Below, one piece after another: positions 47,870-64,000 of a stretch of 64,000 nt of DNA. Location of the stretch: positions 739 to 64,738 of the forward strand of contig JACRCN010000044.1 in the NCBI GenBank assembly GCA_016219005.1, given 5' to 3'. The stretch comes from Deltaproteobacteria bacterium. Its GTDB lineage: Bacteria > Desulfobacterota > Desulfobacteria > Desulfobacterales > SpSt-501. The notes beneath the pieces were generated by a model. That model did no database searches and had not been told where the DNA came from. It saw only the letters and a program-made list of their open reading frames with translations. The number at the start of each line of letters is the position of its first letter. Positions within the stretch are counted from its first letter, which is position 1. The translations under genes were made by a program, and so were the position numbers.

Positions 47870-47915
47870 CTGAAGATTTTTTTTTTACTACCCAGCTATC
47901 TGAAATCGCTCTTAA

Positions 47916-48184: not shown

Positions 48185-48219
48185 TGCAGTCTAGCGAAGA
48201 TGGTTGATCTTGAGTTCTG

Positions 48220-49919: not shown

Positions 49920-50753
49920 ATGGCTATGCAACCCATCACTTTAACCTCAGGCATGCGGGCCAACCTGGTCAGCCTTCAGAACACCAACAGCCTGTTGGAG
50001 ACCACCCAGAAAAAACTGGCAACCGGCAAAAAGGTCAACAGCGCCCTGGACGATCCCGTGGCGTACTTCACGGCGATAGCCCACGAGCAGCGCGCCGGTG
50101 ACCTGGCCGCCCGTAAAGACGAGATGTCCGAGGCGGTTCAGCTGGTCAAGGCGGCAAACGCCGGCATCGAAAGCATCCGAACGCTTATTGCAGCAGCCAA
50201 GTCGCTGGCATCAGCTGCGCTCTCATCCGATGTGACCACGGACGTTACCTCGCTAAGGGATCAGTATAACGAAGTGCAGAATCAGATCAGCCTGATGGCG
50301 GATGACTCGGGTTACAAAGGTATCAATCTGCTCAAGAGCGGCAGCAGCGTCGTCAAGTTCGACGAGACAGGTGCACAGTCAAAACTGACACTCACTGGAT
50401 TTGATGCGACTGCGACCGGCGCGTCGTTGGCTTTAACAGCTGCAACGTGGGATGGCCCGAATACAACTGCCCGAGCAGCCATGGACACGGATATCGGCAA
50501 GCTCGACACTGCTGTATCGACATTGAGGACCAAATCGAGCACGCTGTCCAACAACCTGAGCATCATCACCGCCCGCCAGGAGTTCACCCAGGGCATGATC
50601 AACACCCTGAAGGACGGTGCGGCCGGGTTGACCAACGCCGACATGAACGAGGAAGGCGCCAACATGCTCATGCTCCAGACCCGTCAGGCTCTGGGCACGA
50701 CATCGTTGAATCTCGCCTCCCAGGCGGCCCAGTCGGTCCTGAGACTGTTCTAA
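49920..50753 (+). CDS. fliC: Short (277-aa) flagellin
   Basis: N-terminus LTSGMRANLVSLQNTNSLLETTQKKLATGKKVNSALDDPVAYF. C-terminus DMNEEGANMLMLQTRQALGTTSLNLASQAAQSVLRLF. These are the D0/D1 domains with almost no variable domain. Confidence 0.9.
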   Translation: MAMQPITLTSGMRANLVSLQNTNSLLETTQKKLATGKKVNSALDDPVAYFTAIAHEQRAGDLAARKDEMSEAVQLVKAANAGIESIRTLIAAAKSLASAALSSDVTTDVTSLRDQYNEVQNQISLMADDSGYKGINLLKSGSSVVKFDETGAQSKLTLTGFDATATGASLALTAATWDGPNTTARAAMDTDIGKLDTAVSTLRTKSSTLSNNLSIITARQEFTQGMINTLKDGAAGLTNADMNEEGANMLMLQTRQALGTTSLNLASQAAQSVLRLF

Positions 50754-50769
50754 CCTCACCATTAACCTT

Positions 50770-50806
50770 AAACCCGGGAGAGGAAGCATTTCCCTCTCCC
50801 GGGTTT
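50770..50806 (+). terminator. Strong hairpin after the flagellin gene; attenuator or terminator
   Basis: AAACCCGGGAGAGG-aagcatttc-CCTCTCCCGGGTTT is a perfect 14-bp stem, 17 nt after the stop. The T-run is limited to the TTT at the stem end. Confidence 0.55.
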
Positions 50807-50878
50807 AACGTCACTTGGCTCTTTTCTTGCATTGTGTTCAGCCCGATGTGAAAGATCGAATCCACGAGGTGAACTGGC

Positions 50879-51289
50879 ATGGCTCTTAAAATCACGTTAA
50901 AGCCGGGCGAACGCATGGTTATCGGCGGCGCAGTGCTCACCAACGCGAACTCCGCAAGTTGCGACCTGGTGATCGAAAATAAGACCCCTATTCTCAGGCA
51001 AAAGGACATCCTGTCCGAAGAAAAGGCCAACTCCCCCTGCCGCCGGATCTACTACGCAATTCAGCTGATGTACATCGATGAGCACAACCTTGCCGCGTAT
51101 CATAAGATCTATTGGGACTTGGTAAAGGACTTGATCCGCGCAGCACCGAGTACCGTTGTGCTGATCGATTCCATCAGCGAGCACATCCTTCAGCGGAAGT
51201 ACTATCAGGCCCTCAAGCTGACCAAGCGATTGATCGACTACGAACAGGAGGCTATTCAACATGTATCAGGCTGCGCTGAAAGCGTATGA
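50879..51289 (+). CDS. flbT: Flagellin translational repressor FlbT
   Basis: MALKITLKPGERMVIGGAVLTNANSASCDLVIENKTPILRQKDILSEE.A.SPCRRIYYAIQLMYID matches the FlbT family pattern known from alphaproteobacteria. GAGGTGA RBS. Confidence 0.8.
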   Translation: MALKITLKPGERMVIGGAVLTNANSASCDLVIENKTPILRQKDILSEEKANSPCRRIYYAIQLMYIDEHNLAAYHKIYWDLVKDLIRAAPSTVVLIDSISEHILQRKYYQALKLTKRLIDYEQEAIQHVSGCAESV

Positions 51290-51665
51290 CACCGTAAACA
51301 AGTCCACGATGAGCGGACGGGACGTCGAGGCGGAAGTTCTGACCAAGGCGGCCCTCAAATTAAAAGCATGCCAGGATAGTCTGGCGCGAAATAGCCACGA
51401 TGCAAATCTCGATGCGGCACTGAAATACAACCAGCGCGTGTGGTGCATTTTTCAGGCGGAACTGGAAAATCCCGAAAACCCCCTCCCCAACGCGTTGAAA
51501 ATTGATTTACTGCGCCTGATCGCCTTCATCGACAAACGCACGCTTGAGGTACTGGCCTACCCGGCGGCGGAAAAAATGACGATCCTCATCAACATAAACA
51601 GTAACATCGCCGCCGGGTTGCGCACCCGACCGAATCCGGTTGAGGCCGGCAAAGCTGCCGCATAA
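51261..51665 (+). CDS. flaF: Flagellar biosynthesis regulator FlaF
   Basis: YQAALKAYDTVNKSTMSGRDVEAEVLTKAALKLK...LDAALKYNQRVWCIFQAEL..PENPLPNALKIDLLRLIAFIDKRT matches FlaF. AGGAGG RBS. Overlaps flbT by 29 nt. Confidence 0.8.
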   Translation: MYQAALKAYDTVNKSTMSGRDVEAEVLTKAALKLKACQDSLARNSHDANLDAALKYNQRVWCIFQAELENPENPLPNALKIDLLRLIAFIDKRTLEVLAYPAAEKMTILININSNIAAGLRTRPNPVEAGKAAA

Positions 51666-51785
51666 ACAAGGACCCTGCGACCGCTCCTCCCCCAACGTAT
51701 TTTTGCTCCAAAAATATGCACCCCTGACAGCGCATCGATCTGTGCCGCCAGGGGTGTATTGCGCCCCTGGAAATCCCCAAAAAAT

Positions 51786-53792
51786 TCAATCGGCGGCGGC
51801 GCGGCAGTTCGCCAGATGCGACACTATTTCCGAGTTGACATATCCCAGACGCGATGCCGCCTCCAGTGTCAGGCGCGCATAGTCAGCAAGTGATGCCGAT
51901 AGCAGCCGCCTTGCAATATCGAGGAATGATTCGCCGATGTATTCTCCCATGGCCAAGGACATAAGTGTATTGAGGGCACTTTCCATCTGAGATTGCTCCT
52001 CCAGGCAGGCATGGGTCACGCAAAGCAGGAATTGAGCCGCCGGATACTCCGGCTGCTTCGCCACAACCTCCTGCAGAATTAATTTGGTTTCTTCCGCCTG
52101 CCCTTCCAACAGCAATGCCAGGGCTCGGTTGAACTTAGCTTCTTTCAGAGTCGGGTCAAGCCGCAGTGCTTTTTCTGCGAAGTCTGCCGCTTCTGCATAC
52201 CGTGCAAGGTTCCAGCAGGCGGTACCGATATTCAGATGAGCCTCGGCAGATTGAGGTTGCAGCTTTAAAAATTCTTTCCACGAGTTCAGTGCCTCTTCAT
52301 GCCTCCCCAGGTGTGAGCACTGGATGGCGAATTCCCGCAGCGCCACTGGGTCACGGCGGGTTTTTTTGAGCTTTTTCCGGCCAAGATTGTTATATGCCTT
52401 CGTTTTTTCGTGGGTCTTCCCTTCCTCAAGCTTGCCGTAATGATGAACAGGGATGTCGCACGTGCCGACGGCAATGTTCAGATTCCCGAGAGCAGGCTCA
52501 ACGAGTTCGTGCACCGGGTGGGAAAAACGGATGCGCGCATCATTCGTGAACAGTCTCACCTTATCGCTGGGAATCCAGCCCGACCCCTCTTCCTCAGGAT
52601 ACTCTCCGGTATTCGGTTGCCAGCCCACGGCATTCACGTGCCGGGTGTAGTTACGGGTACGAATGCAAAAAGCCGCAGGCACCTTTTGCACTGAATTAAT
52701 TAGCTTCCTGAATTTATCATGATCCCGCACCGAAAGGATTTCATCGGCGTCCAGTACAAGAATCCAGGCACAGGATGCCTGAGAAAGCGAAAAATTCCGG
52801 GCCTCGGAGAAATCATGCGCCCACGGAAAATCGGCCACATGAGCGCCAAACGCCACGCCGATCTCCTTGGTCCGATCGGTAGATCCGGTATCGACGATGA
52901 CGATCTCGTCGACTACCGGCTTGACACTGTGAAGGCAGCGCGCCAGGTGTTTCTCCTCGTTCTTTACAATCATGCAAAGCGACACTGTGCCGCAGGTTCC
53001 GGAGCTTCCCGCACAGCGCATGGCCCCTATCTGATTCCGGATGTTCAAGGCAGCTCCAAGGATACCGCTGTCAATGCCGAAATCGACCATTGCGGATTCG
53101 ATCTCCGGCATGGCCGCGCCGCGTTTTCCTTGGCGCAACAGAACATCAATCAACAGAAAGCGCACCCGCCGGTTGAGCGCTTGGCATGTCCGTGCACGCC
53201 TGAAAGCGTCTTCCGCGCGCTGAAGGCTATTGAGGGCCAAGAGAGTTTCATGAAAGGCAAGGGTGATTTCGCGTGAAAACGGACAGCACTGAAATGCCTT
53301 TTCAAACCAATCCAAGCTCGTCTCGTGGTTGCCTGCCTCGCGGCTGAGATAACCAAGCCCCAAGCATGCCGAGCCGGAGCGAGGGTTGCGGCAAAGCGCA
53401 TCCTGAAAACACGATTCCGCAAGGATGAGATCCCCGGATCGCGCGGCAATCCGTCCCTTGATGACAAATCCGTATGCGTTGTGACTGTCAACTTCAAGCA
53501 GCATGTCTGCCGATTTCTGCGCGGACGGCACATCTCCGAGCGCTTCATGACAAATGCCGCTTAAATAGATGCGATCGATATCGATCGGGTCGCATTCAGA
53601 CGCCTGAAGCACCTTCAACGCATCCCCATAGCGCTCCGAGTCCATTAGAAGCTCCGCAAGCTTCGCGCGCGCTTCATGGCCAACGGAACCAGTTGCGATG
53701 GCTTGTGCGAGGAGGTTTACAGCCTGGTCACACCGCCCCATGCTGTAAAAAATCTCCGCGCGTTCGATGATGGTGTGTGCGTGCCTGGTCAT
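51786..53792 (-). CDS. TPR - family-2 glycosyltransferase - TPR protein; candidate flagellin glycosyltransferase
   Basis: N-terminal TPR repeats. GT2 core is VSLCMIVKNEEKHLARCLHSVKPVVDEIVIVDTGSTDRT...WILVLDADEIL (DxD). C-terminal TPRs (LNIGTACWNLARYAEAADFAEKALRLDP). Paralogous to the C-terminal third of the adjacent giant protein. Confidence 0.85.
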   Translation of the reverse strand: MTRHAHTIIERAEIFYSMGRCDQAVNLLAQAIATGSVGHEARAKLAELLMDSERYGDALKVLQASECDPIDIDRIYLSGICHEALGDVPSAQKSADMLLEVDSHNAYGFVIKGRIAARSGDLILAESCFQDALCRNPRSGSACLGLGYLSREAGNHETSLDWFEKAFQCCPFSREITLAFHETLLALNSLQRAEDAFRRARTCQALNRRVRFLLIDVLLRQGKRGAAMPEIESAMVDFGIDSGILGAALNIRNQIGAMRCAGSSGTCGTVSLCMIVKNEEKHLARCLHSVKPVVDEIVIVDTGSTDRTKEIGVAFGAHVADFPWAHDFSEARNFSLSQASCAWILVLDADEILSVRDHDKFRKLINSVQKVPAAFCIRTRNYTRHVNAVGWQPNTGEYPEEEGSGWIPSDKVRLFTNDARIRFSHPVHELVEPALGNLNIAVGTCDIPVHHYGKLEEGKTHEKTKAYNNLGRKKLKKTRRDPVALREFAIQCSHLGRHEEALNSWKEFLKLQPQSAEAHLNIGTACWNLARYAEAADFAEKALRLDPTLKEAKFNRALALLLEGQAEETKLILQEVVAKQPEYPAAQFLLCVTHACLEEQSQMESALNTLMSLAMGEYIGESFLDIARRLLSASLADYARLTLEAASRLGYVNSEIVSHLANCRAAAD

Positions 53793-56700
53793 CCGATCGT
53801 TCAGCCCTCATTTTACCGGCAGCCTCGAACAATAAGCCAGCCTGTTCCGCCCTGCCCTCGGAAATCAGGGCTGCCGCCAGTTCTTTGACGAAATCCTCAC
53901 AGTTAAAACGCTTCTTCCAAAGCATTCGAAAAAATTCGAGACCTTTCTCTTTCTGACCGTCGACATAGTAGGCGCTCGCGATCAGGCCCATGGCGGGCGG
54001 GTAATCCGGTTCGCTTTTCAGCAATTTTTCGAGAACACATACGGCATTTTTTGCATTACCTGTTATTAATTCGCAGTTTGAATAATTCAGAGCCGCCTCT
54101 TTTAGGCCCGCATTGAGCTCAAGCGCCTTCTTAGACACTGACAGCGCTTCACTGAAATTCTTTTGCGCCAGATAGGCATATCCCATATTCATCCATGCAA
54201 CGGCATCTGCAGGTTCGCGTTCGAGAAGCTCTTTCCAGATATTGATGGCCTCGTCGTATTCGCCGATTTCGGCGGCCTGGATCGCAAGCTCCCTCAGAGC
54301 ATTTATATCCCCGCCTGTTTCTTCCATCTTCTTTCTGCCCAGCAAAAAGTATTCCTTTCCTTTGGATATCACCTCCGCATGATTTAGCCTGCCATAGTGA
54401 TGAATGGGAATCTGACAAGGGGTGACCCGTATCCCACATTTTTCGATCGCTGATTCCACGGTTTCATGCACCGCGTTTTCAAATTGAATACTTCTATGGT
54501 TTAAAAAAAGCCGCACCTTTGCACTCGGGAACCAGCCCCTAGCGGATTCCTCCTCCGGGTATTCGCCGTCATTGGGTGTCCAACCACGCGACCCGATCTG
54601 ATTCGTATAATTCCGGGTGGTCAATGCATACGCGACCTTTTTAGGGTTTTGATTATGAACGATTGCACGTAAAATGGGATAATCCGCAGGCGAGATGACC
54701 TCATCCGCATCAAGAACCAAAATCCAGTCACCGGTCGCTTTACTTAAAGAAAAATTCCTTGCGGTCGAAAAGTCGCTTCCCCATTGGAAATCGAAAACCC
54801 TTGCACCGAACGCCGTGGCGATCTCCTTCGTACGGTCATTCGATCCTGTGTCTACGATTATGATTTCGTCGACAACCGGTTTCGCGCTGCTCAGACAACG
54901 CGCAAGATGGCCTTGTTCATTTTTAACGATCATGCACAAAGAGAGTCGGTTTGGCGATACATGGCCCAAATCATGAGCGCCCACCTTTTCCCTGACCGCA
55001 AGCGCGGCGGAAAGAATTCCCTCATCGATCCCAAAGCTCGCCATTGCCTGCTCGATCTGGTCCATTGCCTGTGCATGCTTGTTTTGCCTTAATAAAAGGT
55101 CGATCAGCAAAAAAGCGATTCTTCTGCTATTCGGGCAACATTCTCTTGCCTCCGTGAACAGCTCTTCAGCCCTCTGGAACTGCCCGGCGGCGGTAATTGC
55201 CGAGTGGTATGTCGTTAGGGTATGTACGCGTGTCGGTGTGAGGACAAAGCCCTTTTCAAAAAGATCGAGCGCTTCTGCAGTTTGTTCTTCAGCCCATTTC
55301 AGAATGCCGCGGTTCGTGTAGGGATCGCCATAACCCGCATCGGCTTCAATCGCCTTTTTGAAAAAAACGTCGGCTACCGCCGAATCACCTTTTCGAAAAG
55401 CGACAAGACCTTTGAGATTGAGGGCAGATGCCGAGGCAGGTTCGATGTTCAACGCCTTGTCCGCACAATCTTCTGCCTCGCCGTAGGACTCTAACCCCTC
55501 TTTGCAATATCCGATTAATTCCAGGCGTCTCGAATCTTTTTTAGAATTTTCAGGAGCAGAGCAAATTGCATCCAAACCATCCTTATATCGTTTGGAATCA
55601 ATCAGGATTTCGGCGAACCGATGATAGATCCGTGCGTCGTTCGCTGACCGGGTAATCCCTTCAAGAAGTTTTCCAATCGCTTCGTCAATTTGCCCTTTTT
55701 GATAAAATTCATCAGCTTTTTCAACCGCGGACATAGTGAAAAGACTATCGGAAAAGACACTATTTTGCTCTATCTTCTCCCATTTCTCGTCGTATCTACG
55801 TTTATCCTCTATTATTTCAACTCGATTCTTATTTTTCTTTTTATCACTTTTCCTGGTCCCATGTTTTTTGACAAACACGTCGCCGGCAATCAAGTTGCGA
55901 TAACCTGCCAGCTCCGCCCTGAGGCAGAAGTCTTCCACCGCCATGCCACTTGATTTCATCCCCTCATCGAACAGCCCCACATCATCAACGAGATCCCGCT
56001 TGAACATGGCGCAGAAACCGGCAACATGCCGCGCAGAAATTCGACGGTGCTGGTATAGACGCCTTAAAGATTGCGCAAATTTCTGCGGACGCGCCAGCGC
56101 GTCAGACCCGGATCGTGAAACCCTTGGCAAACCGAAGCCGATGACGGTCATGGGGCCGACGACCCCGACGTCTCGGACGCTTTCCAAGCACCCGATCATT
56201 CCGGCAAGCCAGCCCCCGCTCACGACCACGTCAAGGTCTAAGAGCAGCAGGTACTCACCCGATGCTTCGCGAATCCCCTGATTGCTTTCTTCTGCGAAAC
56301 CAAGATCTTCAGCATTTTCGATACATTTGCAGTTATTGTTTTCCCGCAGGATTTTTTTAACCCACTTTAAGACTGCAGGCGATGAATTGTGCGCGACAAC
56401 AATGATCTCATGGGGTTCGCCTGTGTGCTTCCTGATGCTTTTAAAACATTTTTTGACAAGCTCGAGGTCATCTGAGACACGCATAACTATTGTAGTCAGC
56501 CCATCTACCCAGTTCTGGACTGGCTGAGTTGCAGACTCAAACCTCCTAATCGGTTTTTGATGCAATGCATCAATGCGCTGCATGACCACCTTTGCGGCTT
56601 CTTCCCAGGTGAATTTAGTCTTTATCCGGGATAGCGCTGCCATTGCCTTTTCTTGGGCATCTCCCCGGTTTTCGAAAACGTGTTTCATAATCGTTTGTAA

Positions 56701-58860
56701 AGCGGCTTGATCGGGCTCGGCGAGCCAGGGGTAATCCACCGTTTTGATATTCCCGATTTTCTTCTCGGTCCGTTTCACCTCACAAGCAGGTATGAGATAA
56801 GCATTTTCCGAAGTGCAGAAGTCGAGGGCCGCCCCGTATCCCGTGACGACAACGGGCAGTCCGCATGCCATTGCCTCGGCAATCGGCAGACCAAAGCCTT
56901 CTCCACGGTACGGATGCACCAGGCAACTGCAGGCGGTGTAGAGCCCCGCCATATCCTTATCATTCAACGCATGCTCGATATACTCGATTCCCGGGGCACC
57001 CGGCCTCGACCGGTAGCCTTCGATCATCTGTTGAGCGGTCTGACCCTTGTAGAATGTCTTTCCTCCCATATCCTTGATAACAAGGCATACATCGTCTTTT
57101 TCTGAAAACGTATTGAAATAGGCGTCCAGTAAGGCATCAATGCCTTTCCGAAAGATAGTGCCTCCGACGAAAAGAAACTTGAACCGCTTCGTAGTCGAAA
57201 GCTCAAATGGCACCGCATCCGGATGGAACGTGGCGGTATCGACACCGTTGGGTACCACAAAGACCCGGTCCGCCTGCACCCCACTTCGTATATAGCATTC
57301 CCGCACATAGGAACTCGGCACCCACATTTCATCTATCATGGTCGTCATGGGGCGAATCCACTCTTCGGGCAGACTTCCAAATTCCCATGGTTGGATGTTA
57401 ACCCAGTAACCTTCCCGGGGCGGCTGGAAATTAGGGGGCCACCGATGCCTTATATGGACATCGGCTTTTCCGGAAAGCGCTTTTTGGGTCCTTTGAACAA
57501 TCCTCATAAAACGCGGATCGGCATCGGGATGGATGTCGTCTTTTCCGTAAGGGATTATCGAGACCTCACAGCCGGAGTCAATCAAACGTATGCACAATTC
57601 CCTGTTGACCAGGGCAAGAGAATGACGGACGAATTGAGAGCCCTCCCACGCTATTCTCTTGACCGGATTCTTTGCTTTCCTGTCTTTCTCCAACGCCATC
57701 TTATATTGCCATCCGGCGTTTATGGCGCTGACCATCCTGGAAACGACCTCCGACGTGCCTAACAGATTCGCCGCGCCGGCAGCCCGGGTCTGCCGCTCAT
57801 GGTTCGGCATATCATAAGCGCGACGCATGGCATTACGAACATCTTGTACGTGGAGCAGGGGCATGGATGACCCCTTGTGATTTGGTTGATACAACAGCAT
57901 TTCCTGCGTCAAAGGAATCCTGGCATGCGGATCTATAGGTATCGCGACATAGCACTCCGGCGACATATCAAGCACGCCCTCGGGCAGAATGACCATTCGC
58001 TGTCTTACCCGTGCTTCACCGACTGGCGCCGTCGAGGCGGTATCGGTGGATACATATGCGTTACAGCTATCGATTAAGCGGGCGATACCGCTTCGAGTGC
58101 CGAAATCCTCATCAAGTATAATGCTCGCTTCAGAACCGGTCTTTCGGCGCAATGACGCGACCAGATCCAGGAGGTCCTGCCGGGGCTTGCCTGGTACAGG
58201 GTGCCATAAAGGGTAATTAACCTTCAGATAAAGCTCGACATTTTCAGTCCTTTTGAATTCTTCCAGGTAGGCTTCGATCAGAGTGTCCCACCGGCGCCGG
58301 GGCAGAAACAGCGAAATATTCAGGAACCGGAAAGGCCTATCCGTACTCGACGTTTCGGGAAAGGGCGGCGGCAATGCAGGGTTTTCCAGCCAGTGGTGCG
58401 GCCAATAGACGGTGTGAACCATTTCGGGTGGAAAGCCGGCTGCGATAAAGGCTTCCCGTTCGAACTCCACGTGAAGCCAGATCTGGTCCATTTCCCTGCA
58501 CACTGCCAACATTTCGGCGGGAGGCGAGTCCTCCTTAGCATGGCAGTCAAAGACAGTGGTAGCCATAATGCGAACGTTCGGTTCCGGCAATTTTATATCC
58601 AACCAACTCCTGCTGGGCACGTGAGAGATAATAGCGGTAACTGGCGGAATAACTGGTGTTGCTTCAAGCGATTTGATAAGAGCCAGGTCACAATCATCTA
58701 TGCCTGACTCAGCCTGATTTACGGATATGATCTTGATTCGTGCACCGGCCTTATGGAGGGCCGCCACACTCGTCCGCGCTGCAACGCCGAAGCCGCTCCG
58801 ATTATAAAACGGCGCAATCCAGACTATCGTTCCGGACAACACCGGATGCTGTTTGTTCAC
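53728..58860 (-). CDS. Giant (~1,710-aa) multi-glycosyltransferase/TPR fusion: GT4-like, GT4, GT2, TPR, GT2, TPR
   Basis: The GT4 signature is HPYRGEGFGLPIAEAMACGLPVVV. The first GT2 shows TTIVMRVSDDLELVKKC...IIVVAHNSS...YLLLLDLDVVV. TPR block is FYQKGQIDEAIGKL.... The second GT2 shows LSLCMIVKNEQGHLARCL...IIIVDTGSNDRT...WILVLDADEVI. C-terminal TPRs follow. Start set at GTG 58858-58860 (AAAGGGG 7 nt upstream). The track ORF to 59193 would overlap the upstream SDR gene. Confidence 0.8.
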   Translation of the reverse strand: MNKQHPVLSGTIVWIAPFYNRSGFGVAARTSVAALHKAGARIKIISVNQAESGIDDCDLALIKSLEATPVIPPVTAIISHVPSRSWLDIKLPEPNVRIMATTVFDCHAKEDSPPAEMLAVCREMDQIWLHVEFEREAFIAAGFPPEMVHTVYWPHHWLENPALPPPFPETSSTDRPFRFLNISLFLPRRRWDTLIEAYLEEFKRTENVELYLKVNYPLWHPVPGKPRQDLLDLVASLRRKTGSEASIILDEDFGTRSGIARLIDSCNAYVSTDTASTAPVGEARVRQRMVILPEGVLDMSPECYVAIPIDPHARIPLTQEMLLYQPNHKGSSMPLLHVQDVRNAMRRAYDMPNHERQTRAAGAANLLGTSEVVSRMVSAINAGWQYKMALEKDRKAKNPVKRIAWEGSQFVRHSLALVNRELCIRLIDSGCEVSIIPYGKDDIHPDADPRFMRIVQRTQKALSGKADVHIRHRWPPNFQPPREGYWVNIQPWEFGSLPEEWIRPMTTMIDEMWVPSSYVRECYIRSGVQADRVFVVPNGVDTATFHPDAVPFELSTTKRFKFLFVGGTIFRKGIDALLDAYFNTFSEKDDVCLVIKDMGGKTFYKGQTAQQMIEGYRSRPGAPGIEYIEHALNDKDMAGLYTACSCLVHPYRGEGFGLPIAEAMACGLPVVVTGYGAALDFCTSENAYLIPACEVKRTEKKIGNIKTVDYPWLAEPDQAALQTIMKHVFENRGDAQEKAMAALSRIKTKFTWEEAAKVVMQRIDALHQKPIRRFESATQPVQNWVDGLTTIVMRVSDDLELVKKCFKSIRKHTGEPHEIIVVAHNSSPAVLKWVKKILRENNNCKCIENAEDLGFAEESNQGIREASGEYLLLLDLDVVVSGGWLAGMIGCLESVRDVGVVGPMTVIGFGLPRVSRSGSDALARPQKFAQSLRRLYQHRRISARHVAGFCAMFKRDLVDDVGLFDEGMKSSGMAVEDFCLRAELAGYRNLIAGDVFVKKHGTRKSDKKKNKNRVEIIEDKRRYDEKWEKIEQNSVFSDSLFTMSAVEKADEFYQKGQIDEAIGKLLEGITRSANDARIYHRFAEILIDSKRYKDGLDAICSAPENSKKDSRRLELIGYCKEGLESYGEAEDCADKALNIEPASASALNLKGLVAFRKGDSAVADVFFKKAIEADAGYGDPYTNRGILKWAEEQTAEALDLFEKGFVLTPTRVHTLTTYHSAITAAGQFQRAEELFTEARECCPNSRRIAFLLIDLLLRQNKHAQAMDQIEQAMASFGIDEGILSAALAVREKVGAHDLGHVSPNRLSLCMIVKNEQGHLARCLSSAKPVVDEIIIVDTGSNDRTKEIATAFGARVFDFQWGSDFSTARNFSLSKATGDWILVLDADEVISPADYPILRAIVHNQNPKKVAYALTTRNYTNQIGSRGWTPNDGEYPEEESARGWFPSAKVRLFLNHRSIQFENAVHETVESAIEKCGIRVTPCQIPIHHYGRLNHAEVISKGKEYFLLGRKKMEETGGDINALRELAIQAAEIGEYDEAINIWKELLEREPADAVAWMNMGYAYLAQKNFSEALSVSKKALELNAGLKEAALNYSNCELITGNAKNAVCVLEKLLKSEPDYPPAMGLIASAYYVDGQKEKGLEFFRMLWKKRFNCEDFVKELAAALISEGRAEQAGLLFEAAGKMRAERSDDQARTHHHRTRGDFLQHGAV

Positions 58861-59006
58861 TGACCTACCCCTTTCCAAAATTCTGACACAGAAATTTCTA
58901 GCTCGATCGCCAGGCGGCTGAACCCGGATTGCCGGTGGTTCTTCTATCCGGATTTTCCATGCTGGAATGACATGTGCCCGGACAACCTCATCCCGGTTCA
59001 CTAGAT

Positions 59007-60092
59007 TTACCGGCCCTGCATCGGCGTCATGGAAAAGAAGTCCACCGTGCGCCGAATGGCGCATTCCAGGTTGATCCACATCCCTATCCCCAGCTCTTTC
59101 TGCGCCTTTTGGGTCGACGGCACGTAGCGATCCGGAAGTGCGCCGGGAGCGGGCCTTCCGATGATGTGGACTTCGGGGGGGTTGGGTAAGCAATTCGCCA
59201 CGAATCGGGCCAACTCGGCGATGCTCAAGGCGTCTTCGGAACCAACGTTGTAGATCCCGCCCGGACTACCTTTGAAAAGGATCGTCCAGAGCCAGATTGT
59301 GAGATCAGCGGCATAAAGGTATGCGCGGACAGCCGTTCCATCCCCCTGCACGACAACGGGGCCGCCACGAAGGGCATCCCGGATGAAATTCCCGATGGCA
59401 TAATGAAGGTCCAGGGGCAGACGAGGACCGACGAAGCTGAAGCAGCGAGCGATGGTAATGGCAATCCCGGAGGTCTCACCGATCGCTTCGCAGAGGAATT
59501 CTGCGGCGCGCTTTCCCTCGGCCAGGGCCCGCTGGGGGTAGCCGCGAACCGGGCCCCCTGCAAAATCCTCAGGAATCCGGTCAAGATCCTTCGGCTGCGG
59601 TCCATACACCACGCCCGAACTCGTGAAGAGCATCCGCCGTGCTCCGCTTTGGACCGCGAAGTCCAGCACCCTGCGCGTTCCCATCGCGAGGGTTTCATAC
59701 TTCCGCAGGGATGATTCCCCGGCAAAGGTCTCCCTGGCGTTGGTGGTCGCTGCATGGAAGATCAAGTCAAAGGCCCCTTCCGGAAAGGCGAAGTCCCTAA
59801 CGTCGCCTGCCACAAGCACGATGGCCGGATCGTCCGCCAAATGAGGAAGGGATCGCCGGAAGCCCCCGGGGTCGCGGGTGAGCACGACGGCGGATGCGTT
59901 CAAGTCCAGGCGCTGGTTTGCGAACGTCAAACTCTCCAGCAACCAACTGCCAAAGAAGCCCGTCGCTCCAGTGAGAAATAGGCGTTTACCTTTGAGCCCA
60001 TCCCAAATATCGCTTGCCTTTGCGAGGATGTGGCAGAGATCCGCCTCCGGAAGCTGTGGGATGCATGCGATTGGTGGCATCTTAATACCCAT
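59007..60092 (-). CDS. NAD-dependent sugar epimerase/dehydratase (extended SDR; UDP-glucuronate-decarboxylase-like)
   Basis: The Rossmann motif is LFLTGATGFFGSWLL. The catalytic region Y....EGKRAAEFL resembles the UXS-type YDEGKRVAE. Confidence 0.85.
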   Translation of the reverse strand: MGIKMPPIACIPQLPEADLCHILAKASDIWDGLKGKRLFLTGATGFFGSWLLESLTFANQRLDLNASAVVLTRDPGGFRRSLPHLADDPAIVLVAGDVRDFAFPEGAFDLIFHAATTNARETFAGESSLRKYETLAMGTRRVLDFAVQSGARRMLFTSSGVVYGPQPKDLDRIPEDFAGGPVRGYPQRALAEGKRAAEFLCEAIGETSGIAITIARCFSFVGPRLPLDLHYAIGNFIRDALRGGPVVVQGDGTAVRAYLYAADLTIWLWTILFKGSPGGIYNVGSEDALSIAELARFVANCLPNPPEVHIIGRPAPGALPDRYVPSTQKAQKELGIGMWINLECAIRRTVDFFSMTPMQGR

Positions 60093-60144
60093 TGGATCGG
60101 GATGCTGGTTGATGATAGAGAGTGCACAAACCCATGCGCTTTAT

Positions 60145-61467
60145 TTAATCCGATCCTCCTACATGCCGGTATTGGTCTCGTATGCCTTGTTCTCCAGGGA
60201 ATTGCAGCATTTCACCGCCTTCTCCGCAATGGTCACAGCTTTCGTAGTGCGGTTGTTCGTCGACCTGCAGAATTTTTTCCCGCAACTCCTGGGCAGAATG
60301 TGTCGCATCGATTCTCACCCAGTCGCATGGGTAATCTGCAAGATGATGGGAACCGATGCCGGCAGTGGTGGAGCAAGGGTAGTAAACGCCATTCTGGATG
60401 GTCTTGCAGCTATTAATTGAATTGCATCCGGCTTTCATTGCGATTTTAGTGGCTCCGGGGAGATTCAATTTGCGCAAGGACGCCGGGGTTGACCAGAGCG
60501 GCTGACCAACCGTGAAGTTAATGCCACTCTCGGATGCGTGTCTAACATTTTTTGCAAATAGATTGCGCTGGTTTTCCGACAGGCTTGTCGTATAGTCTGA
60601 AAAAATCAGGCGAGTCTTTCTATTGTTGAGTTTGATGATGTGTTTGTCCTTGATGTCGCAGATGCCGTTCGTGGTGATTCCGAGCACGCCGAAATTGGGC
60701 TTACCGAGCACAAGATCAATGATATCGTTCAATGCGGGGTGCAGGAACGGTTCCCCTCCTATAATCGAAACGTAGCCAATCGCATCCACCGCGTCGAAAA
60801 TCCGGTCAATATCCGTCTTGATCCGTTCAAGAGTGAAATTGATGCGCTCCTCCCGCGGATAGTGATTTATGTACTGCCCGCAATGCTGGCATTTCAGCGT
60901 GCATTTCTGGTTAATTGCGAAGGTTGCTACCGGGAAGACAAGCTTGCCGCTGAAATCATTAAGGCGTGCCTTCTTGCATTCCCGATACAGCAGACTCGGC
61001 AGGCGTTTGCATGCACACCAGTTGCAAAACGTCGTGCCGATGCAAACCTTCGCATCGAAGCCGGTCTCTGGCTTCATTCCGCACATCAAGGCCTCAAACA
61101 ATGCCATGCCGGAAAGGTAATGGCGATAACCCACTGCCAAAAATTCCTGTTCACCGACACTGCCCGACAGGCTCCCGTTCGGGATGCAGCTTACGATGAG
61201 TGTTCGTTCACGGTCGAATTCCGACGAGAACGGCATAGTAACCTTAATGTCGTTGACTTCCTTCAATTCTGCGGCACGGATATCCCAATAACAAAGCTGT
61301 TCGCGGGGGACACCCCCTGCAATAAGGAAAGCGCCGAATGCCGTGCCAAATTTTCCAGCGCCGCGCAGGACGATATTCCGGAAGCCTTTGATGTATCGGC
61401 CGATTTCAGCGGAGTGATCGCTGTCACCCCTTCTGGCAAGTTCCAGGACTTCGTTAATGTTTTTCAT
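60145..61467 (-). CDS. Radical-SAM enzyme with an N-terminal GxGxxG domain and extra Cys clusters (paralog 1)
   Basis: The radical-SAM triad is NQKCTLKCQHCGQY (CxxxCxxC), followed by IIGGEPFLHP. Upstream Cys motif is CGMKPETGFDAKVCIGTTFCNWCAC. N-terminus has VLRGAGKFGTAFG. C-terminus has YPCS...YPCDW...SCDHCGEG. ATG 61467 (GAGGGAG upstream) is preferred over TTG 61500. Confidence 0.8.
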   Translation of the reverse strand: MKNINEVLELARRGDSDHSAEIGRYIKGFRNIVLRGAGKFGTAFGAFLIAGGVPREQLCYWDIRAAELKEVNDIKVTMPFSSEFDRERTLIVSCIPNGSLSGSVGEQEFLAVGYRHYLSGMALFEALMCGMKPETGFDAKVCIGTTFCNWCACKRLPSLLYRECKKARLNDFSGKLVFPVATFAINQKCTLKCQHCGQYINHYPREERINFTLERIKTDIDRIFDAVDAIGYVSIIGGEPFLHPALNDIIDLVLGKPNFGVLGITTNGICDIKDKHIIKLNNRKTRLIFSDYTTSLSENQRNLFAKNVRHASESGINFTVGQPLWSTPASLRKLNLPGATKIAMKAGCNSINSCKTIQNGVYYPCSTTAGIGSHHLADYPCDWVRIDATHSAQELREKILQVDEQPHYESCDHCGEGGEMLQFPGEQGIRDQYRHVGGSD

Positions 61468-61506
61468 GTGCGGTCGGCTCCCTCGTTGATCAGTTGACAA
61501 CGGTTG

Positions 61507-62727
61507 TCACGCCGGGCAGGCCCTTGGTGTCGTCATTAGGCGCACAACTCTGTTCGGCAGTCCGAGACAGCGTATCGATTTTTCTATGCTTTCAGAGGAG
61601 TTTTCGCCACAAATAACAATGTCACCGCTGAATGAGCATAAGGTTTTTGGGGGCTCGACGGTCAAACCCATCAGCCTTTCTCCCTGTCGCTCAGGATTAC
61701 TGTCTACAAGGTGGCGGATGCTGCAGTTCCTCAGGGGCGTATGAGTAAGCATTCGATAAGCAAAGATTGAAACTCCCCACAATGCAATTTCGTGTGAATT
61801 CAATTGGGCGATATTCGAAAGGACAGCATTCCCTTTATCGCTCGGACGGGTGAAGCTGTCATAAATAAATTGAGCATCGGCTGCAGCGAAACATAGAGGC
61901 TTTTTAACATCGGATTTTTCAAATAATGCACGTATGCAAGGATAGATTCCGGGCGTCGACTCGTATTGTATCAGCGTGAATGCGCGCATCAAATTCAGCA
62001 ACGAAACCAGGCTAAAATGGTTAATATGCTCGAATTCAAAGAAATAGCCGGGGAACGGACTGCATTCCTGGAAGCGGGCAAGATCGGGGAGTTCGACGTA
62101 GATCCTTCCCCTCGGTTTAAGCCACTTCCCAACATTGTCAAGGCACGCCAGCGGGAATTCCAGATGCTCGAGGACGTGACGCAATATGATCAAATCAAAC
62201 TTGTTCTCAAATTCTGGGAATAAATCAGTGGCCAAGCCCGTTCTGCCGGGAATTCCACGGTCTGATAAGTATTTAATTGCGGCCCGATCCGGGTCGATGG
62301 CATACAGGTTGTCGAAACCGGCGCGCTGCAACGACGCCAAAGTAACGCCAAATGAGCAACCTATGTCCACGATGGTTTGGTTCGTCGGCTTCAATCCTGC
62401 GCGTACCAAGAAGCTGGTCGTCATATCGTTGAGCCGTGCCTGATCGACAGAGACCTGGTAGTGGTTCGTGTCGGAACCCGTATAGGATTCGTAATAGTCG
62501 TCACGGTCATCCTGATGCCTGACGTTATGAAAGACGGCACCGCAGCGGGCGCATGCGTTGACCGAAAATGAGTGCTGCAACGAAAAGTTATCCGGAACGA
62601 CCAGTTCTATATGCCGAATGGGGGAGGACTCCCTAGATCCACAGACGGGGCAAGTGCGAGGTGCGACCGCCGTTGCATCGGTACGGCCGGCGAAGGTGTC
62701 TGTTGAAGATGGAATATTCTGCGACAT
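61507..62727 (-). CDS. SAM-dependent methyltransferase with an N-terminal zinc ribbon (NDP-hexose C-methyltransferase-like architecture)
   Basis: Zn ribbon is CPVCGS...CARCGAVFHN. SAM motif I is IVDIGCSFGVTL, then FDLIILRHVLEHL, plus a ~120-aa C-terminal domain. ATG 62725-62727 with GGAAGGAG 7 nt upstream. Confidence 0.8.
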   Translation of the reverse strand: MSQNIPSSTDTFAGRTDATAVAPRTCPVCGSRESSPIRHIELVVPDNFSLQHSFSVNACARCGAVFHNVRHQDDRDDYYESYTGSDTNHYQVSVDQARLNDMTTSFLVRAGLKPTNQTIVDIGCSFGVTLASLQRAGFDNLYAIDPDRAAIKYLSDRGIPGRTGLATDLFPEFENKFDLIILRHVLEHLEFPLACLDNVGKWLKPRGRIYVELPDLARFQECSPFPGYFFEFEHINHFSLVSLLNLMRAFTLIQYESTPGIYPCIRALFEKSDVKKPLCFAAADAQFIYDSFTRPSDKGNAVLSNIAQLNSHEIALWGVSIFAYRMLTHTPLRNCSIRHLVDSNPERQGERLMGLTVEPPKTLCSFSGDIVICGENSSESIEKSIRCLGLPNRVVRLMTTPRACPA

Positions 62728-62789
62728 AAAGAGGCTCCTTCCGGCAGATAAAAATGCACTTAAACCGGGGGTATGAATCCGCGTTCCTG

Positions 62790-64000
62790 CTATTCCTCGG
62801 GTAGCGCGTACCGACTGTCGAAACCTTGCTCCGCGGCTTGGCTTGTCAATGCCGGGGATCCGAAAGCATCGCAGTGCCCGCATGCTCGGTAATGCAAGCG
62901 CGATATCAGCTCGCGAATACCATCGCGAATTTCCTCTGGCGATTTATTGGGATCAAGAAGGACATAGTCCGTCTTATAATCAGCCACGCGGAGGTCATGA
63001 ATAGACAGGGCAAAAGCGCACGGGAAAAGTCTGCCATCGAATACGTACAGGAAGCGCACACCACACGCACTTTTCTTTTGGATCGTCGTTTCGATGGAAT
63101 CTCGTTTGTTCTCGAGCGTAGATGAGATGTTCCAGGTCGGCAACGTGTTTTGATACTTTGTATTGACGCCCGAGGATTTGGCGGTTTCGATGTTCCTGAA
63201 AAACAACGCTTTTTTCCTCTCGTCAATCACTTCGAGGTAATTTGAAAACGCTAGGCGAACCCGTTCGTCTGCCATGCTAGCGAGTTGGCTATTCTCAATG
63301 CGGACGGTCCCGTTGCTGTTAACGATAACTGCCCCCATATTATCGTGGGATAACACACGGCTGACAATCCGATCGAGGTCTTTATGGAGGAACGGTTCGC
63401 CGCCGAAGATGTTGACAACGCCGAACGAATGTACTGCGCGCATAACGACATCAATATCTTGCAGTATCTGCCCGATAGATACGTTTTGTTTATACTCTTT
63501 GGGATAACTATTGATGTAGACGAAACAATGCTTGCACTTCAGATTACATATGTTATTGACAATAAAATGGACTCTGTCGAACGACAGTGTTTCGCCCAGC
63601 GAAATGCCCAGTTTTCGGGCTGCGTTCGCCCGGACGATGTTGTGCAGACGTTCGCACGAGCATACGCTGCAAATGTCAAGACTGTTGCAGATTTTTGTGT
63701 CGGGAGGCCGTTCGTTGGAGAGAGGGCATAGCAGCCCTTGCAGAAGATCGTTCCCATGCACCACGTGCTTCCAACCGTTTTCGGCCAGTTGCCGAAAGAC
63801 ATTCGGCCCGATGGCCACATTGCCAATACAAAAGAGAACCAATGTCGTTTCTTTTCTTAAATAACCTGTAAAGGGAGGGGTAACGCCCAGGCCGTTGCAC
63901 GTTTTGATAATCTCGGCCTGAATGTCCCAATAACAGGAAACGGGGACACCTAGCTCCAGTAGCTTGCTGCCTACCGCAGTCCCGAGGTTACCTGCCCCCC
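62790..64000 (-). CDS. Radical-SAM enzyme paralog 2; the 5' end runs off the window
   Basis: NNICNLKCKHCFVY, IFGGEPFLHK, the upstream Cys motif CPLSNERPPDTKICNSLDICSVCSC, and C-terminal ACGHCDAFG. Manual translation upstream of the track's TTG (63842) stays open to 64000 and reads GAGNLGTAVGSKLLELGVPVSCYWDIQAEII. This is homologous to GAGKFGTAFGAFLIAGGVPREQLCYWDIRAAEL of paralog 1. Confidence 0.75.
   Translation of the reverse strand, partial: GAGNLGTAVGSKLLELGVPVSCYWDIQAEIIKTCNGLGVTPPFTGYLRKETTLVLFCIGNVAIGPNVFRQLAENGWKHVVHGNDLLQGLLCPLSNERPPDTKICNSLDICSVCSCERLHNIVRANAARKLGISLGETLSFDRVHFIVNNICNLKCKHCFVYINSYPKEYKQNVSIGQILQDIDVVMRAVHSFGVVNIFGGEPFLHKDLDRIVSRVLSHDNMGAVIVNSNGTVRIENSQLASMADERVRLAFSNYLEVIDERKKALFFRNIETAKSSGVNTKYQNTLPTWNISSTLENKRDSIETTIQKKSACGVRFLYVFDGRLFPCAFALSIHDLRVADYKTDYVLLDPNKSPEEIRDGIRELISRLHYRACGHCDAFGSPALTSQAAEQGFDSRYALPEE

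What the first reader, a model, noticed from the sequence alone, without database searches (positions are those of the whole stretch)
51786..58860. A ~1,710-aa six-module glycosyltransferase/TPR megaprotein plus a tandem TPR-GT2-TPR paralog next to the flagellin locus
One ORF fuses a degenerate GT4-like module, a canonical GT4 (EGFGLPIAEAMACGLPVV), a GT2 (LLLLDLDVVV), a TPR block, a second GT2 (IVKNEQGHLARCL...VDTGSNDRT...LDADEVI) and terminal TPRs.

The last three modules are duplicated as the separate 668-aa protein immediately downstream. The two overlap by 65 nt.

TPR-plus-glycosyltransferase proteins are the known architecture of flagellin glycosyltransferases such as Caulobacter FlmG, where the TPR binds flagellin. 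Four catalytic GT modules on one polypeptide would amount to an assembly-line enzyme able to build an oligosaccharide directly on flagellin. That is not a described arrangement as far as I know.
Basis: partly seen in the sequence, partly recalled or inferred. Interest (0 to 1): 0.75.

Follow-up and report, generated by a model that had tools for sequence, protein, structure and literature searches.

The report
Giant modular flagellin glycosyltransferase locus
Next to the flagellin gene of an uncultured sulfate-reducer-type bacterium sit a 192-kDa protein that fuses four sugar-transferase modules with two protein-binding repeat arms, and a smaller relative of its tail; they most likely decorate flagellin with a short sugar chain, and are an unstudied but widespread variant of known flagellin-glycosylating enzymes.

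Summary
A 1,710-aa ORF (53728-58860, minus strand, GTG start) and a 668-aa ORF (51786-53792) overlap by 65 nt. The second is 42% identical to the last 644 aa of the first. Ten or more independent full-length orthologs (44-80% identity) rule out a mis-merged assembly.

Module order is GT-B (no Pfam match, fold confirmed by AlphaFold and Foldseek), canonical GT4, GT2a, TPR, GT2b, TPR. GT2b and the paralog's GT2 are homologs of the catalytic domain of Listeria GmaR, the flagellin O-GlcNAc transferase. The paralog's model best matches the peptide S-glycosyltransferases SunS and ThuS. So the closest known type is GmaR/SunS, not FlmG.

Every examined locus with the GT2a-TPR-GT2b-TPR cassette or the 668-aa type lies beside flagellin, mostly in the order flaF-flbT-flagellin. 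This includes cultured Geomonas oryzae.

Three caveats apply:
- GT2a has lost the usual nucleotide-binding aspartates and is the least conserved module.
- The N-terminal GT-B pair also occurs alone in glycan islands with no flagellin within 10 kb.
- Such giant fusions, up to 4,092 aa, are common in metagenomes.

Verdict: an uncharacterised new variant of a known kind. Function is inferred, not shown.

The parts
53728..58860 (-). 1,710-aa (191.7 kDa) six-module glycosyltransferase/TPR protein; GTG start, soluble (no TM segment)
   Evidence: (P0001 identical, 1710 aa)
57661..58860 (-). Module 1 (aa 1-400): divergent GT-B fold glycosyltransferase. It has no Pfam match. The first Glu of EX7E is replaced (STDTASTAPVGEA); E282, D273, R189 and R190 are invariant. 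It is as conserved as the GT4 module.
56551..57660 (-). Module 2 (aa 401-770): canonical GT4 (Glyco_transf_4 plus Glycos_transf_1) with an invariant EX7E motif (E654...E662)
55831..56508 (-). Module 3 (aa 785-1010): GT2a, rhamnosyltransferase-like GT-A. DLD and the ED catalytic Asp (D977) are kept. The VDxxSxD aspartates are lost (VAHNSSP). It is the least conserved catalytic module.
54976..55725 (-). Module 4 (aa 1046-1295): TPR arm A, preceded by a basic linker (aa 1011-1045)
54361..54963 (-). Module 5 (aa 1300-1500): GT2b, a homolog of the GmaR flagellin O-GlcNAc transferase domain and of SunS. VDTGS, DADE, HE and HHYG are invariant.
53791..54318 (-). Module 6 (aa 1515-1690): TPR arm B
51786..53792 (-). 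668-aa stand-alone TPR-GT2-TPR protein (73.9 kDa). It is an old paralog of modules 4-6. It belongs to a very large family of ~668-aa proteins. It is the gene that stays next to flaF-flbT-flagellin in relatives.
49920..50753 (+). Flagellin, 277 aa, 21% Ser/Thr; the only flagellin copy in the window and the presumed acceptor
50879..51289 (+). flbT (flagellin translational regulator family)
51261..51665 (+). flaF (flagellin secretion chaperone family)
59007..60092 (-). NAD-dependent sugar epimerase/dehydratase, directly upstream on the same strand
60145..61500 (-). Radical SAM protein (451-aa ORF), likely glycan or donor modification
61507..62883 (-). SAM-dependent methyltransferase (458-aa ORF)
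62790..63842 (-). Second radical SAM protein (350-aa ORF); the island continues to the end of the window

Best explanation
The region is a flagellin glycosylation island at the edge of a flagellar gene cluster in a Desulfobacterota (former Deltaproteobacteria) genome.

The TPR-GT2-TPR unit is present twice, once as the 668-aa protein and once as the tail of the 1,710-aa protein. It is a GmaR/SunS-type protein-directed glycosyltransferase. Its two TPR arms hold unfolded or monomeric flagellin in the cytoplasm. The GT-A domain between them puts a sugar on Ser/Thr of the exposed central segment, before FlaF-assisted export.

In the large protein this targeting unit is fused to three further transferase modules: a conserved pair of GT-B domains and GT2a. 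These extend the glycan on the bound protein, using nucleotide sugars tailored by the upstream epimerase, radical SAM and methyltransferase genes. No lipid carrier or exporter is involved.

What is shown:
- the architecture
- the intact reading frame
- homology to GmaR and SunS
- the GT-B fold of module 1
- conserved linkage to flagellin
- the age of the duplication

What is inferred:
- that flagellin is the acceptor
- which module starts the glycan and which extend it
- the sugars used
- whether GT2a is active
For: Real gene: 10 full-length orthologs of 1,680-1,727 aa align end to end.

Flagellin linkage: the orthologous large gene lies directly beside convergent flaF-flbT-flagellin in several places.
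- L001, L002 and L003.
- The P0006 contig, where flaF-flbT are recorded and the gene table then ends before any flagellin.
- Geomonas oryzae, L004.
- L041.
- A Lacunisphaera homolog lies between flagellin-Maf-NeuB and HDOD-CheX-CheW-CheA.
- The 668-aa ortholog in L048 keeps the window's whole gene order. The one in L047 lies beside a flagellin called in two pieces and the same HDOD/sigma-54 genes, but no flaF or flbT was called there.

Protein-directed chemistry:
- GT2b matches the GmaR GT domain at E 7e-33 over the whole domain.
- The paralog matches GmaR at 6e-28 and SunS at 8e-16.
- The paralog's model (pLDDT 87.5) best matches SunS and ThuS, then OGT and SPINDLY.

Catalytic motifs are invariant in GT4, GT2b and the paralog family. 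Module 1 is a GT-B fold as conserved as GT4.

No TM segment is predicted in either protein, and no Wzx/Wzy/ABC exporter is seen among the ORFs annotated in 44-64 kb.

The two TPR-GT2-TPR lineages are separate old clades, both retained in several genomes. That implies non-redundant roles.

Literature: TPR domains confer flagellin recognition in FlmG and Maf-1 (PMC7591256; PMC13317340). GT2+TPR is already used as a predictor of flagellin glycosyltransferases (PMC13317340).
Against: - There is no experimental datum for any member. No glycan, donor or acceptor is known.
- GT2a lacks the two Asp of the VDxxSxD motif. Its DXD is lost in 3 of 10 orthologs, so it may be inactive.
- Module 1 lacks the first Glu of EX7E.
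- The GT-B pair occurs as a stand-alone ~780-aa protein in many Syntrophobacteraceae genomes, in radical-SAM/FkbM-methyltransferase islands. No flagellin or TPR-GT2 lies within 10 kb of those. In Desulfatitalea the split modules are not next to flagellin either. So part of the machinery may serve another glycoconjugate.
- No nucleotide-sugar synthesis genes are visible in the window, apart from one epimerase/dehydratase-family gene.
Confidence: 0.65

Rival explanations
1. The large protein builds a non-flagellar glycoconjugate, such as a polysaccharide, an S-layer or pilin glycan, or a small-molecule glycoside. It merely sits in a variable island beside the flagellar genes. Only the 668-aa protein, if either, acts on flagellin.
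For: - The N-terminal GT-B pair is found in 38 of 39 GTDB loci without flagellin within 10 kb, always with FkbM methyltransferases, radical SAM and sometimes NeuB.
- Some sources name relatives 'O-antigen biosynthesis protein' or 'cell wall biosynthesis'.
- The gene upstream of the 668-aa gene differs completely between close relatives (L047 versus the window).
Against: - The large protein carries its own GmaR-type TPR-GT2-TPR unit.
- In every locus where that unit is fused or adjacent, flagellin is the neighbour.
- There is no membrane anchor, lipid-carrier transferase, flippase or exporter among the ORFs annotated in 44-64 kb.
- Source names are automatic.
Confidence: 0.2
2. The large protein is mainly a scaffold or pseudoenzyme. 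Only one or two modules are catalytic. The rest, namely GT2a, perhaps module 1 and the duplicated TPR-GT2, serve to dock flagellin or partner enzymes. The glycan would then be a mono- or disaccharide rather than an assembly-line oligosaccharide.
For: - GT2a has lost the nucleotide-binding Asp residues and shows 9% invariant columns.
- The DXD motif is lost in P0008, P0009 and P0010.
- Module 1 lacks the first EX7E glutamate.
- GmaR itself moonlights through its non-catalytic part (PMC9638930).
Against: - Module 1 is as conserved as the canonical GT4 (62% versus 65%). It keeps an invariant Glu, Asp and Arg-Arg where GT4 enzymes bind the donor.
- GT2a keeps DLD and the invariant catalytic Asp in the window's protein.
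- Fusion of four GT folds is maintained over at least 44% sequence divergence.
Confidence: 0.12
3. The 1,710-aa ORF is an assembly or frameshift artefact that merges several genes.
For: It comes from a metagenome-assembled contig. Relatives exist in which the same modules are separate genes (Desulfatitalea L044).
Against: - The frame is uninterrupted.
- The identical protein is annotated by NCBI.
- Ten independent orthologs from different samples have the same length and module order at 44-80% identity.
- Inter-module linkers align.
Confidence: 0.02

Closest known systems
GmaR (Listeria monocytogenes flagellin O-GlcNAc transferase; GT2 domain + TPR + antirepressor domain)
   Same: GT2b and the paralog's GT2 are clear homologs of the GmaR catalytic domain (E 7e-33 and 6e-28, aligned over residues 11-181 of the 204-residue chain). 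A TPR domain is adjacent. The gene lies in a flagellar context. The enzyme is cytoplasmic and soluble.
   Different: Here TPR arms lie on both sides of the GT2 domain, whereas in GmaR the GT2 domain is N-terminal. No chain named GmaR other than the GT domain appears among the 47 PDB sequences matched by the 668-aa protein at E <= 1e-5. No MogR-type partner was seen. One copy is fused to three extra GT modules. The donor sugar is unknown.
SunS / ThuS glycocin S-glycosyltransferases (GT2 + helical TPR-like peptide-binding domain)
   Same: These are the best structural matches of the 668-aa model (Foldseek E 7e-12, probability 1.0). There is also sequence similarity over GT2 plus the following helices (residues 267-508).
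   Different: The score is far below the NCBIfam SunS cut-off (70 versus 350 bits). There is no glycocin precursor or bacteriocin genes nearby. An extra N-terminal TPR arm is present.
FlmG (Caulobacter/Brevundimonas flagellin pseudaminyl/legionaminyl transferase)
   Same: The logic is the same: a TPR domain that binds flagellin joined to a transferase domain, with the gene near flaF/flbT-type flagellin regulation (PMC7591256).
   Different: FlmG is 596 aa with an N-terminal TPR and a C-terminal GT-B domain, and it uses Pse or Leg. Here the TPR-flanked domain is GT-A. No NeuB/Pse genes were found among the ORFs annotated in 44-64 kb. FlmG-like TPR+GT9/GT41 proteins occupy the downstream slot in other relatives (L002, L004) but not here.
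Multi-domain polysaccharide glycosyltransferases (for example two- or three-module O-antigen or capsule polymerases such as WbdA, WbbB, chondroitin polymerase; some capsule polymerases carry a TPR domain); named from my own knowledge, not tested here
   Same: Several GT-A/GT-B catalytic modules sit on one soluble polypeptide and act in sequence on one growing glycan.
   Different: Those enzymes act on lipid-linked acceptors and are linked to ABC or Wzy export genes. This protein carries a protein-directed GmaR-type unit and sits beside flagellin with no exporter.

Membership tests
GT4 / Pfam Glycos_transf_1 (module 2, aa 401-770) | Pfam Glyco_transf_4 plus Glycos_transf_1 above the gathering score | tested here: met
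   PF00534 59.9 bits (cut-off 26.4) and PF13439 30.3 bits (cut-off 28.5)
GT4 / Pfam Glycos_transf_1 (module 2, aa 401-770) | EX7E motif | tested here: met
   EGFGLPIAE; E654 and E662 are invariant in 10 orthologs
GT4-like GT-B (module 1, aa 1-400) | Sequence-model match to a GT-B family | tested here: not met
   No Pfam, NCBIfam or PDB profile hit. There is only weak paralogy to module 2 (28-33% over ~90 aa).
GT4-like GT-B (module 1, aa 1-400) | GT-B two-Rossmann fold | tested here: met
   The AF2 model has pLDDT 89. The top 50 Foldseek PDB hits are nearly all GT-B glycosyltransferases, mostly GT4 (GlgM, B736L, BshA, MshA, HepE), probability 1.0, TM 0.36-0.68.
GT4-like GT-B (module 1, aa 1-400) | EX7E motif | tested here: inconclusive
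   The second Glu (E282) is invariant. The first is replaced (TDTASTAPVGE), with an invariant D273 nearby.
GT2 / GT-A (GT2a, aa 785-1010) | Pfam GT2-type match above cut-off | tested here: met
   Glyco_tranf_2_2 39.9 bits (cut-off 27.3) and Glyco_tranf_2_3 33.5 bits (cut-off 27)
GT2 / GT-A (GT2a, aa 785-1010) | DXD metal/donor motif and catalytic Asp | tested here: met
   DLD is present and D977 is invariant. DXD is lost in 3 of 10 orthologs.
GT2 / GT-A (GT2a, aa 785-1010) | Nucleotide-binding Asp residues of the (V/I)DxxSxD motif | tested here: not met
   The hhalign GT2a-versus-GT2b comparison puts Ala and Pro (VAHNSSP) opposite the two Asp of VDTGSND.
GmaR-type flagellin O-glycosyltransferase (GT2b and the 668-aa protein) | Catalytic domain homologous to the GmaR GT domain, with intact VDxGSxD and DxDE | tested here: met
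   E 7e-33 and 6e-28 to PDB 22ao. Motifs are invariant.
GmaR-type flagellin O-glycosyltransferase (GT2b and the 668-aa protein) | Adjacent TPR domain | tested here: met
   Pfam TPR families; model helices 8-255 and 482-667
GmaR-type flagellin O-glycosyltransferase (GT2b and the 668-aa protein) | C-terminal antirepressor domain with a MogR partner | tested here: not met
   No chain named GmaR other than the GT domain is among the 47 PDB sequences that the 668-aa protein matches at E <= 1e-5. I did not confirm that the longer GmaR chain is in the library copy. No MogR was searched for specifically.
GmaR-type flagellin O-glycosyltransferase (GT2b and the 668-aa protein) | Transfers GlcNAc to flagellin Ser/Thr | not testable with these tools
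   This needs biochemistry or MS. Only genomic linkage to flagellin is shown.
FlmG class | N-terminal TPR followed by a C-terminal GT-B domain | tested here: not met
   The TPR-flanked domain is GT-A/GT2. The GT-B modules are N-terminal and separated from the TPR by GT2a.
FlmG class | Pse/Leg donor pathway (NeuB/PseI etc.) in the genome or locus | tested here: inconclusive
   No NeuB was found among the ORFs annotated in 44-64 kb. The rest of the genome is unknown. NeuB is present in some relatives' islands.
Maf (motility-associated factor) flagellin glycosyltransferases | MAF_flag10 / MptE-like domain (PF01973) | tested here: not met
   There is no PF01973 hit in either protein. A Maf gene is present in the Lacunisphaera relative's island.
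SunS family peptide S-glycosyltransferase (TIGR04195) | Score above the NCBIfam cut-off | tested here: not met
   70.4 bits against a cut-off of 350. The similarity is structural only.

The most novel reading that the evidence does not exclude
These proteins are lipid-carrier-free 'assembly lines' for protein glycans. One polypeptide docks flagellin through its TPR arms and builds a complete, heavily tailored oligosaccharide on it. In larger relatives (up to 4,092 aa, L048) radical-SAM and methyltransferase domains are fused into the same chain, so that glycan synthesis and tailoring happen on one scaffold. The hypervariable N-terminal modules would then act as exchangeable cassettes that diversify the flagellar surface.
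Probability: 0.3. Interest if true: 0.75.

Novelty: new variant of a known kind. Interest (0 to 1): 0.5.

Why it matters
Flagellin glycosylation is understood mainly for single-sugar systems: Maf and FlmG with nonulosonic acids, and GmaR with GlcNAc. How oligosaccharides are built directly on a cytoplasmic protein, and how acceptor specificity is joined to several donor specificities, is poorly defined.

This locus and its relatives offer a natural experiment in domain fusion and fission. The same modules appear in three forms:
- split into separate genes (Desulfatitalea);
- fused into a 1,710-aa protein (this window);
- expanded to 2,800-4,100 aa (Geomonas, Desulfobacterales).

A cultured carrier, Geomonas oryzae, makes the system testable. 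If active, a soluble protein-targeted multi-GT enzyme would be useful for glycoengineering. The work also exposes a conserved GT-B family that current Pfam and NCBIfam models do not detect.

Tried and rejected
- Frameshift or assembly artefact: rejected.
- FlmG as the closest family: rejected on architecture.
- Maf: no MptE-like domain.
- Defence-system GT (the PF20706 'GT4-conflict' hit): it overlaps the ordinary GT4 hit and scores lower, and the flagellar context argues against it. Not pursued.
- Sequence-profile search of module 1 against PDB: no hit at E <= 1. The fold search was needed.
- The look-up of encoding contigs for the window's own protein: not on record.
- Paenibacillus alvei flagellin glycosylation paper (PMC5110117): not held. 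I could not check my recollection that its FgtA is multi-domain.
- Sigma-54 promoter scan: 35 hits against 32 expected, and nothing upstream of the large gene. Only a site before flbT was noted.
- Literature searches for Geobacter/Desulfovibrio flagellin glycosylation and multi-domain flagellin GTs: nothing relevant.
- The tblastn flagellin screen of GTDB loci is limited to 10 kb flanks. It missed the Lacunisphaera flagellin that lies just outside. So '1 of 39' understates the linkage.
Full report
**1. Observation**

The window holds an uninterrupted minus-strand ORF at 53728-59193 and a second one at 51786-53792.
- The first most likely starts at GTG 58860, which lies 7 nt after GGAAAGGGG and 146 nt after the stop of the upstream epimerase gene.
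- That start gives 1,710 aa and 191.7 kDa, with no hydrophobic segment that would span a membrane.
- NCBI annotates exactly this protein as 'MAG: glycosyltransferase [Deltaproteobacteria bacterium]' on a 64,807-nt contig (P0001).
- The two ORFs overlap by 65 nt.
- A different gene call starts the second gene 17 codons later (P0121). Five orthologs of exactly 668 aa align over 100% of the query, so I keep the longer form.

**2. Modules**

Pfam places the modules as follows, in 1,710-aa numbering:
- GT4 at about aa 470-760
- GT2a at about aa 790-1005
- a TPR block at about aa 1048-1155
- GT2b at aa 1307-1419
- a second TPR block at aa 1520-1650

The first 400 residues have no hit in Pfam, in NCBIfam, or in a profile search of PDB sequences.
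- An AlphaFold model built on 14 diverse homologs is confident (pLDDT 89, pTM 0.85).
- Its best PDB matches are nearly all GT-B glycosyltransferases, most of them GT4. Examples are GlgM, PBCV B736L, BshA, MshA, HepE and SenB, at probability 1.0.
- BLAST shows weak paralogy between this module and the GT4 module (28-33% over aa 124-213).

Calling this module 'degenerate' is therefore misleading.
- Across ten orthologs it is as conserved as the canonical GT4: 62% versus 65% mean pairwise identity, and 32% versus 35% invariant columns.
- Only the first glutamate of EX7E is replaced. E282, D273 and R189-R190 are invariant even in the more diverse 14-sequence set.

GT2a is the weak one.
- It has 44% mean identity and 9% invariant columns.
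- A profile-profile alignment against GT2b puts Ala and Pro (VAHNSSP) where GT2b has the two aspartates of VDTGSND.
- The window's protein keeps DLD and the invariant catalytic Asp D977.
- Three orthologs have lost the last Asp of DXD.

GT2b, GT4 and the paralog family have all canonical motifs invariant.

**3. Not an artefact**

Orthologs P0002, P0004-P0010 and P0013 come from independent JGI, ENA, NCBI and Logan assemblies.
- They are 1,680-1,727 aa long and 44-80% identical.
- They cover 98-100% of the query.
- They align end to end, linkers included.

**4. What the TPR-GT2-TPR unit is**

GT2b matches the crystallised GT domain of Listeria GmaR (PDB 22ao) at E 7e-33 over essentially the whole domain. 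It then matches SunS.
- The 668-aa protein matches GmaR at 6e-28. It matches SunS at 8e-16 over the GT2 domain plus the following helices.
- GmaR is the flagellin O-GlcNAc transferase. It consists of a GT domain, a TPR domain, a linker and an antirepressor domain (PMC9638930).

The AlphaFold model of the 668-aa protein (pLDDT 87.5) has three parts: 15 helices, then a GT-A core, then 12 helices.
- Its best PDB matches are the glycocin S-glycosyltransferases SunS and ThuS.
- The next matches are OGT and SPINDLY.
- All of these enzymes glycosylate peptides or proteins.

This is therefore a protein-directed transferase of the GmaR/SunS type. FlmG is different: a 596-aa protein with an N-terminal TPR and a C-terminal GT-B domain (PMC7591256).

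**5. Genomic context**

The window between 29 and 46 kb encodes FliM, FlgE, FliK, FliI, FliG, FliF and two sigma-54 activators.
- Next come CheX, a response regulator with a STAS domain, and an HDOD protein.
- Then come flagellin, flbT and flaF.
- The two glycosyltransferase genes converge on flaF.
- Upstream of them, on the same strand, are an epimerase/dehydratase, two radical SAM proteins and a methyltransferase.
- The glycosylation genes have 48-55% G+C, against 63.6% for the flagellar cluster.

**6. Is the flagellin linkage conserved?**

For genes that carry the cassette, yes.
- L001 and L002 are 55-56% orthologs. Both have the order: large GT, a TPR protein, flaF, flbT, a small ORF, flagellin.
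- On the P0006 contig the order is: large GT, a 669-aa TPR-GT2-TPR protein, flaF, flbT. The gene table ends there, before any flagellin.
- L003 has a 2,548-aa version next to flaF-flbT, two flagellins and motAB.
- Geomonas oryzae, a cultured Geobacterales species, has a 2,818-aa version. It is followed by a TPR-GT41 protein and then flaF-flbT-flagellin.
- L041 from the GTDB scan shows the same pattern.
- A 2,240-aa Lacunisphaera (Verrucomicrobiota) homolog lies between flagellin-Maf-NeuB genes and HDOD-CheX-CheW-CheA.

The 668-aa type is the most constant neighbour of flagellin.
- L048 repeats the window's whole gene order from the 668-aa gene to fliF. Its upstream gene is a 4,092-aa ORF, of which 3,331 codons without a stop are in hand.
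- That ORF combines GT2, radical SAM, GT1, WbsX, methyltransferase and TPR domains.
- It ends in the same GT2a-TPR-GT2b-TPR cassette, 43-60% identical to the window's.
- In L047 the 81% ortholog again sits beside flagellin, here called in two pieces, and beside the same HDOD and sigma-54 genes. No flaF or flbT was called there.
- Upstream of it in L047 lies a completely different set of GT and methyltransferase genes.

This mosaic pattern is what flagellin glycosylation islands look like in other bacteria.

**7. Limits of the linkage**

I scanned GTDB species genomes with the N-module and found 39 loci.
- Most are in Syntrophobacteraceae and other Desulfobacterota.
- Others are in Verrucomicrobiota, Ignavibacteria, Chloroflexota, Holophagaceae and Ideonella.

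In most of these loci the GT-B pair is a stand-alone protein of about 780 aa.
- It sits at the end of an operon of FkbM-type methyltransferases and radical SAM proteins, sometimes with NeuB.
- Only one locus has flagellin within 10 kb.
- L011 is flanked by housekeeping genes.
- In Desulfatitalea the modules are separate genes: GT-B pair+TPR, TPR, TPR-GT2, TPR-GT41. No flagellin lies within 10 kb.

The 10-kb limit understates the linkage, since it missed the Lacunisphaera flagellin. Even so, the GT-B pair is best seen as a glycan-building cassette that is not bound to flagellin by itself. The window's protein is a fusion of that cassette with GT2a and a flagellin-linked GmaR-type unit.

**8. 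The duplication is old**

Stand-alone 668-aa proteins are 47-85% identical to each other. The C-termini of the large proteins are 46-74% identical to each other, leaving aside the more divergent Geomonas tail (39-41%). Between the two groups identity is only 36-42%, and they form separate clades. Both copies coexist in the window, on the P0006 contig and in L048. So the two have distinct roles. They might use different sites, different sugars, or divide the work into initiation and targeting of the extension modules.

**9. How common, how known**

The 668-aa architecture has at least 4,833 relatives at E <= 1e-20 among the 8,000 candidates scored.

The N-module has 117 representatives (50% identity clusters) at E <= 1e-30 and 896 at E <= 1e-10. 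Many are in proteins of 2,000-5,089 aa.

No curated NCBIfam model reaches its cut-off for either protein.

Full-text searches found papers on FlmG, Maf and GmaR. They also found a 2026 Clostridium survey that uses 'GT2 domain plus TPR repeats' to nominate flagellin glycosyltransferases (PMC13317340). Nothing turned up on multi-GT giant proteins of this kind.

**10. Verdict**

The flagellin-glycosylation reading is well supported by context and homology, but it is untested. The 'four active modules, assembly line' claim is plausible for three modules and doubtful for GT2a. The arrangement is not unique to this genome.

It is a new, uncharacterised variant of a known kind: TPR-guided cytoplasmic flagellin O-glycosyltransferases of the GmaR type. 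Interest is moderate.

Noticed in passing
L048:1-9995 (Desulfobacterales SpSt_501 contig): A 4,092-aa ORF lies directly upstream of the 668-aa ortholog. It fuses GT2, radical SAM, GT1, WbsX, methyltransferase and TPR domains. It ends in the same GT2a-TPR-GT2b-TPR cassette as the window's protein. At least 3,331 codons without a stop are in the DNA held.
   Followed up: partly
window 57661-58860 (-): The N-terminal module belongs to a conserved GT-B family that Pfam, NCBIfam and PDB sequence searches do not detect. It has 117 cluster representatives at E <= 1e-30 and 896 at E <= 1e-10, often inside proteins of 2,000-5,000 aa.
   Followed up: yes
window 50816-50831 (+): A sigma-54-like site, TGGCTCTTTTCTTGCA (1 mismatch to TGGCAC-N5-TTGCW), lies between the flagellin stop and the flbT start. 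The window-wide count of such sites is not above chance.
   Followed up: no
window 50000-64000 versus 29000-46000: The glycosylation genes have 48-55% G+C against 63.6% in the flagellar structural cluster. This suggests a laterally exchanged, variable island.
   Followed up: partly
window 50879-51665; L004:20515-21283: flbT and flaF are usually discussed for Alphaproteobacteria. Here they sit next to a short (273-277 aa) flagellin in Desulfobacterota MAGs and in Geomonas oryzae.
   Followed up: no
window 60145-63842 (-): Two radical SAM genes and a 458-aa methyltransferase lie upstream of the GT genes. The methyltransferase and the second radical SAM ORF overlap by 94 nt as listed. Relatives' islands carry B12-binding radical SAM and FkbM methyltransferases, which suggests an unusually tailored (C-methylated?) sugar.
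   Followed up: no
L047:13204-14053: In the closest relative of the 668-aa gene (81% identity), the adjacent flagellin is called as two pieces (164 and 103 aa). This may be a frameshift or assembly error there.
   Followed up: no
L002:15140-16852; L004:18454-20352: In other relatives the slot downstream of the large GT holds a TPR protein with weak GT9 or GT41 (GT-B) matches. That is a FlmG-like architecture, in place of the TPR-GT2-TPR paralog.
   Followed up: no
window 46538-49068; L046, L047, L048: The block of HDOD, CheX, response regulator-STAS and two sigma-54 activators next to flagellin is conserved, with CheX absent from the L047 gene calls. It extends from this window to Desulfobacterales contigs and, in part, to a Verrucomicrobiota genome.
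   Followed up: no
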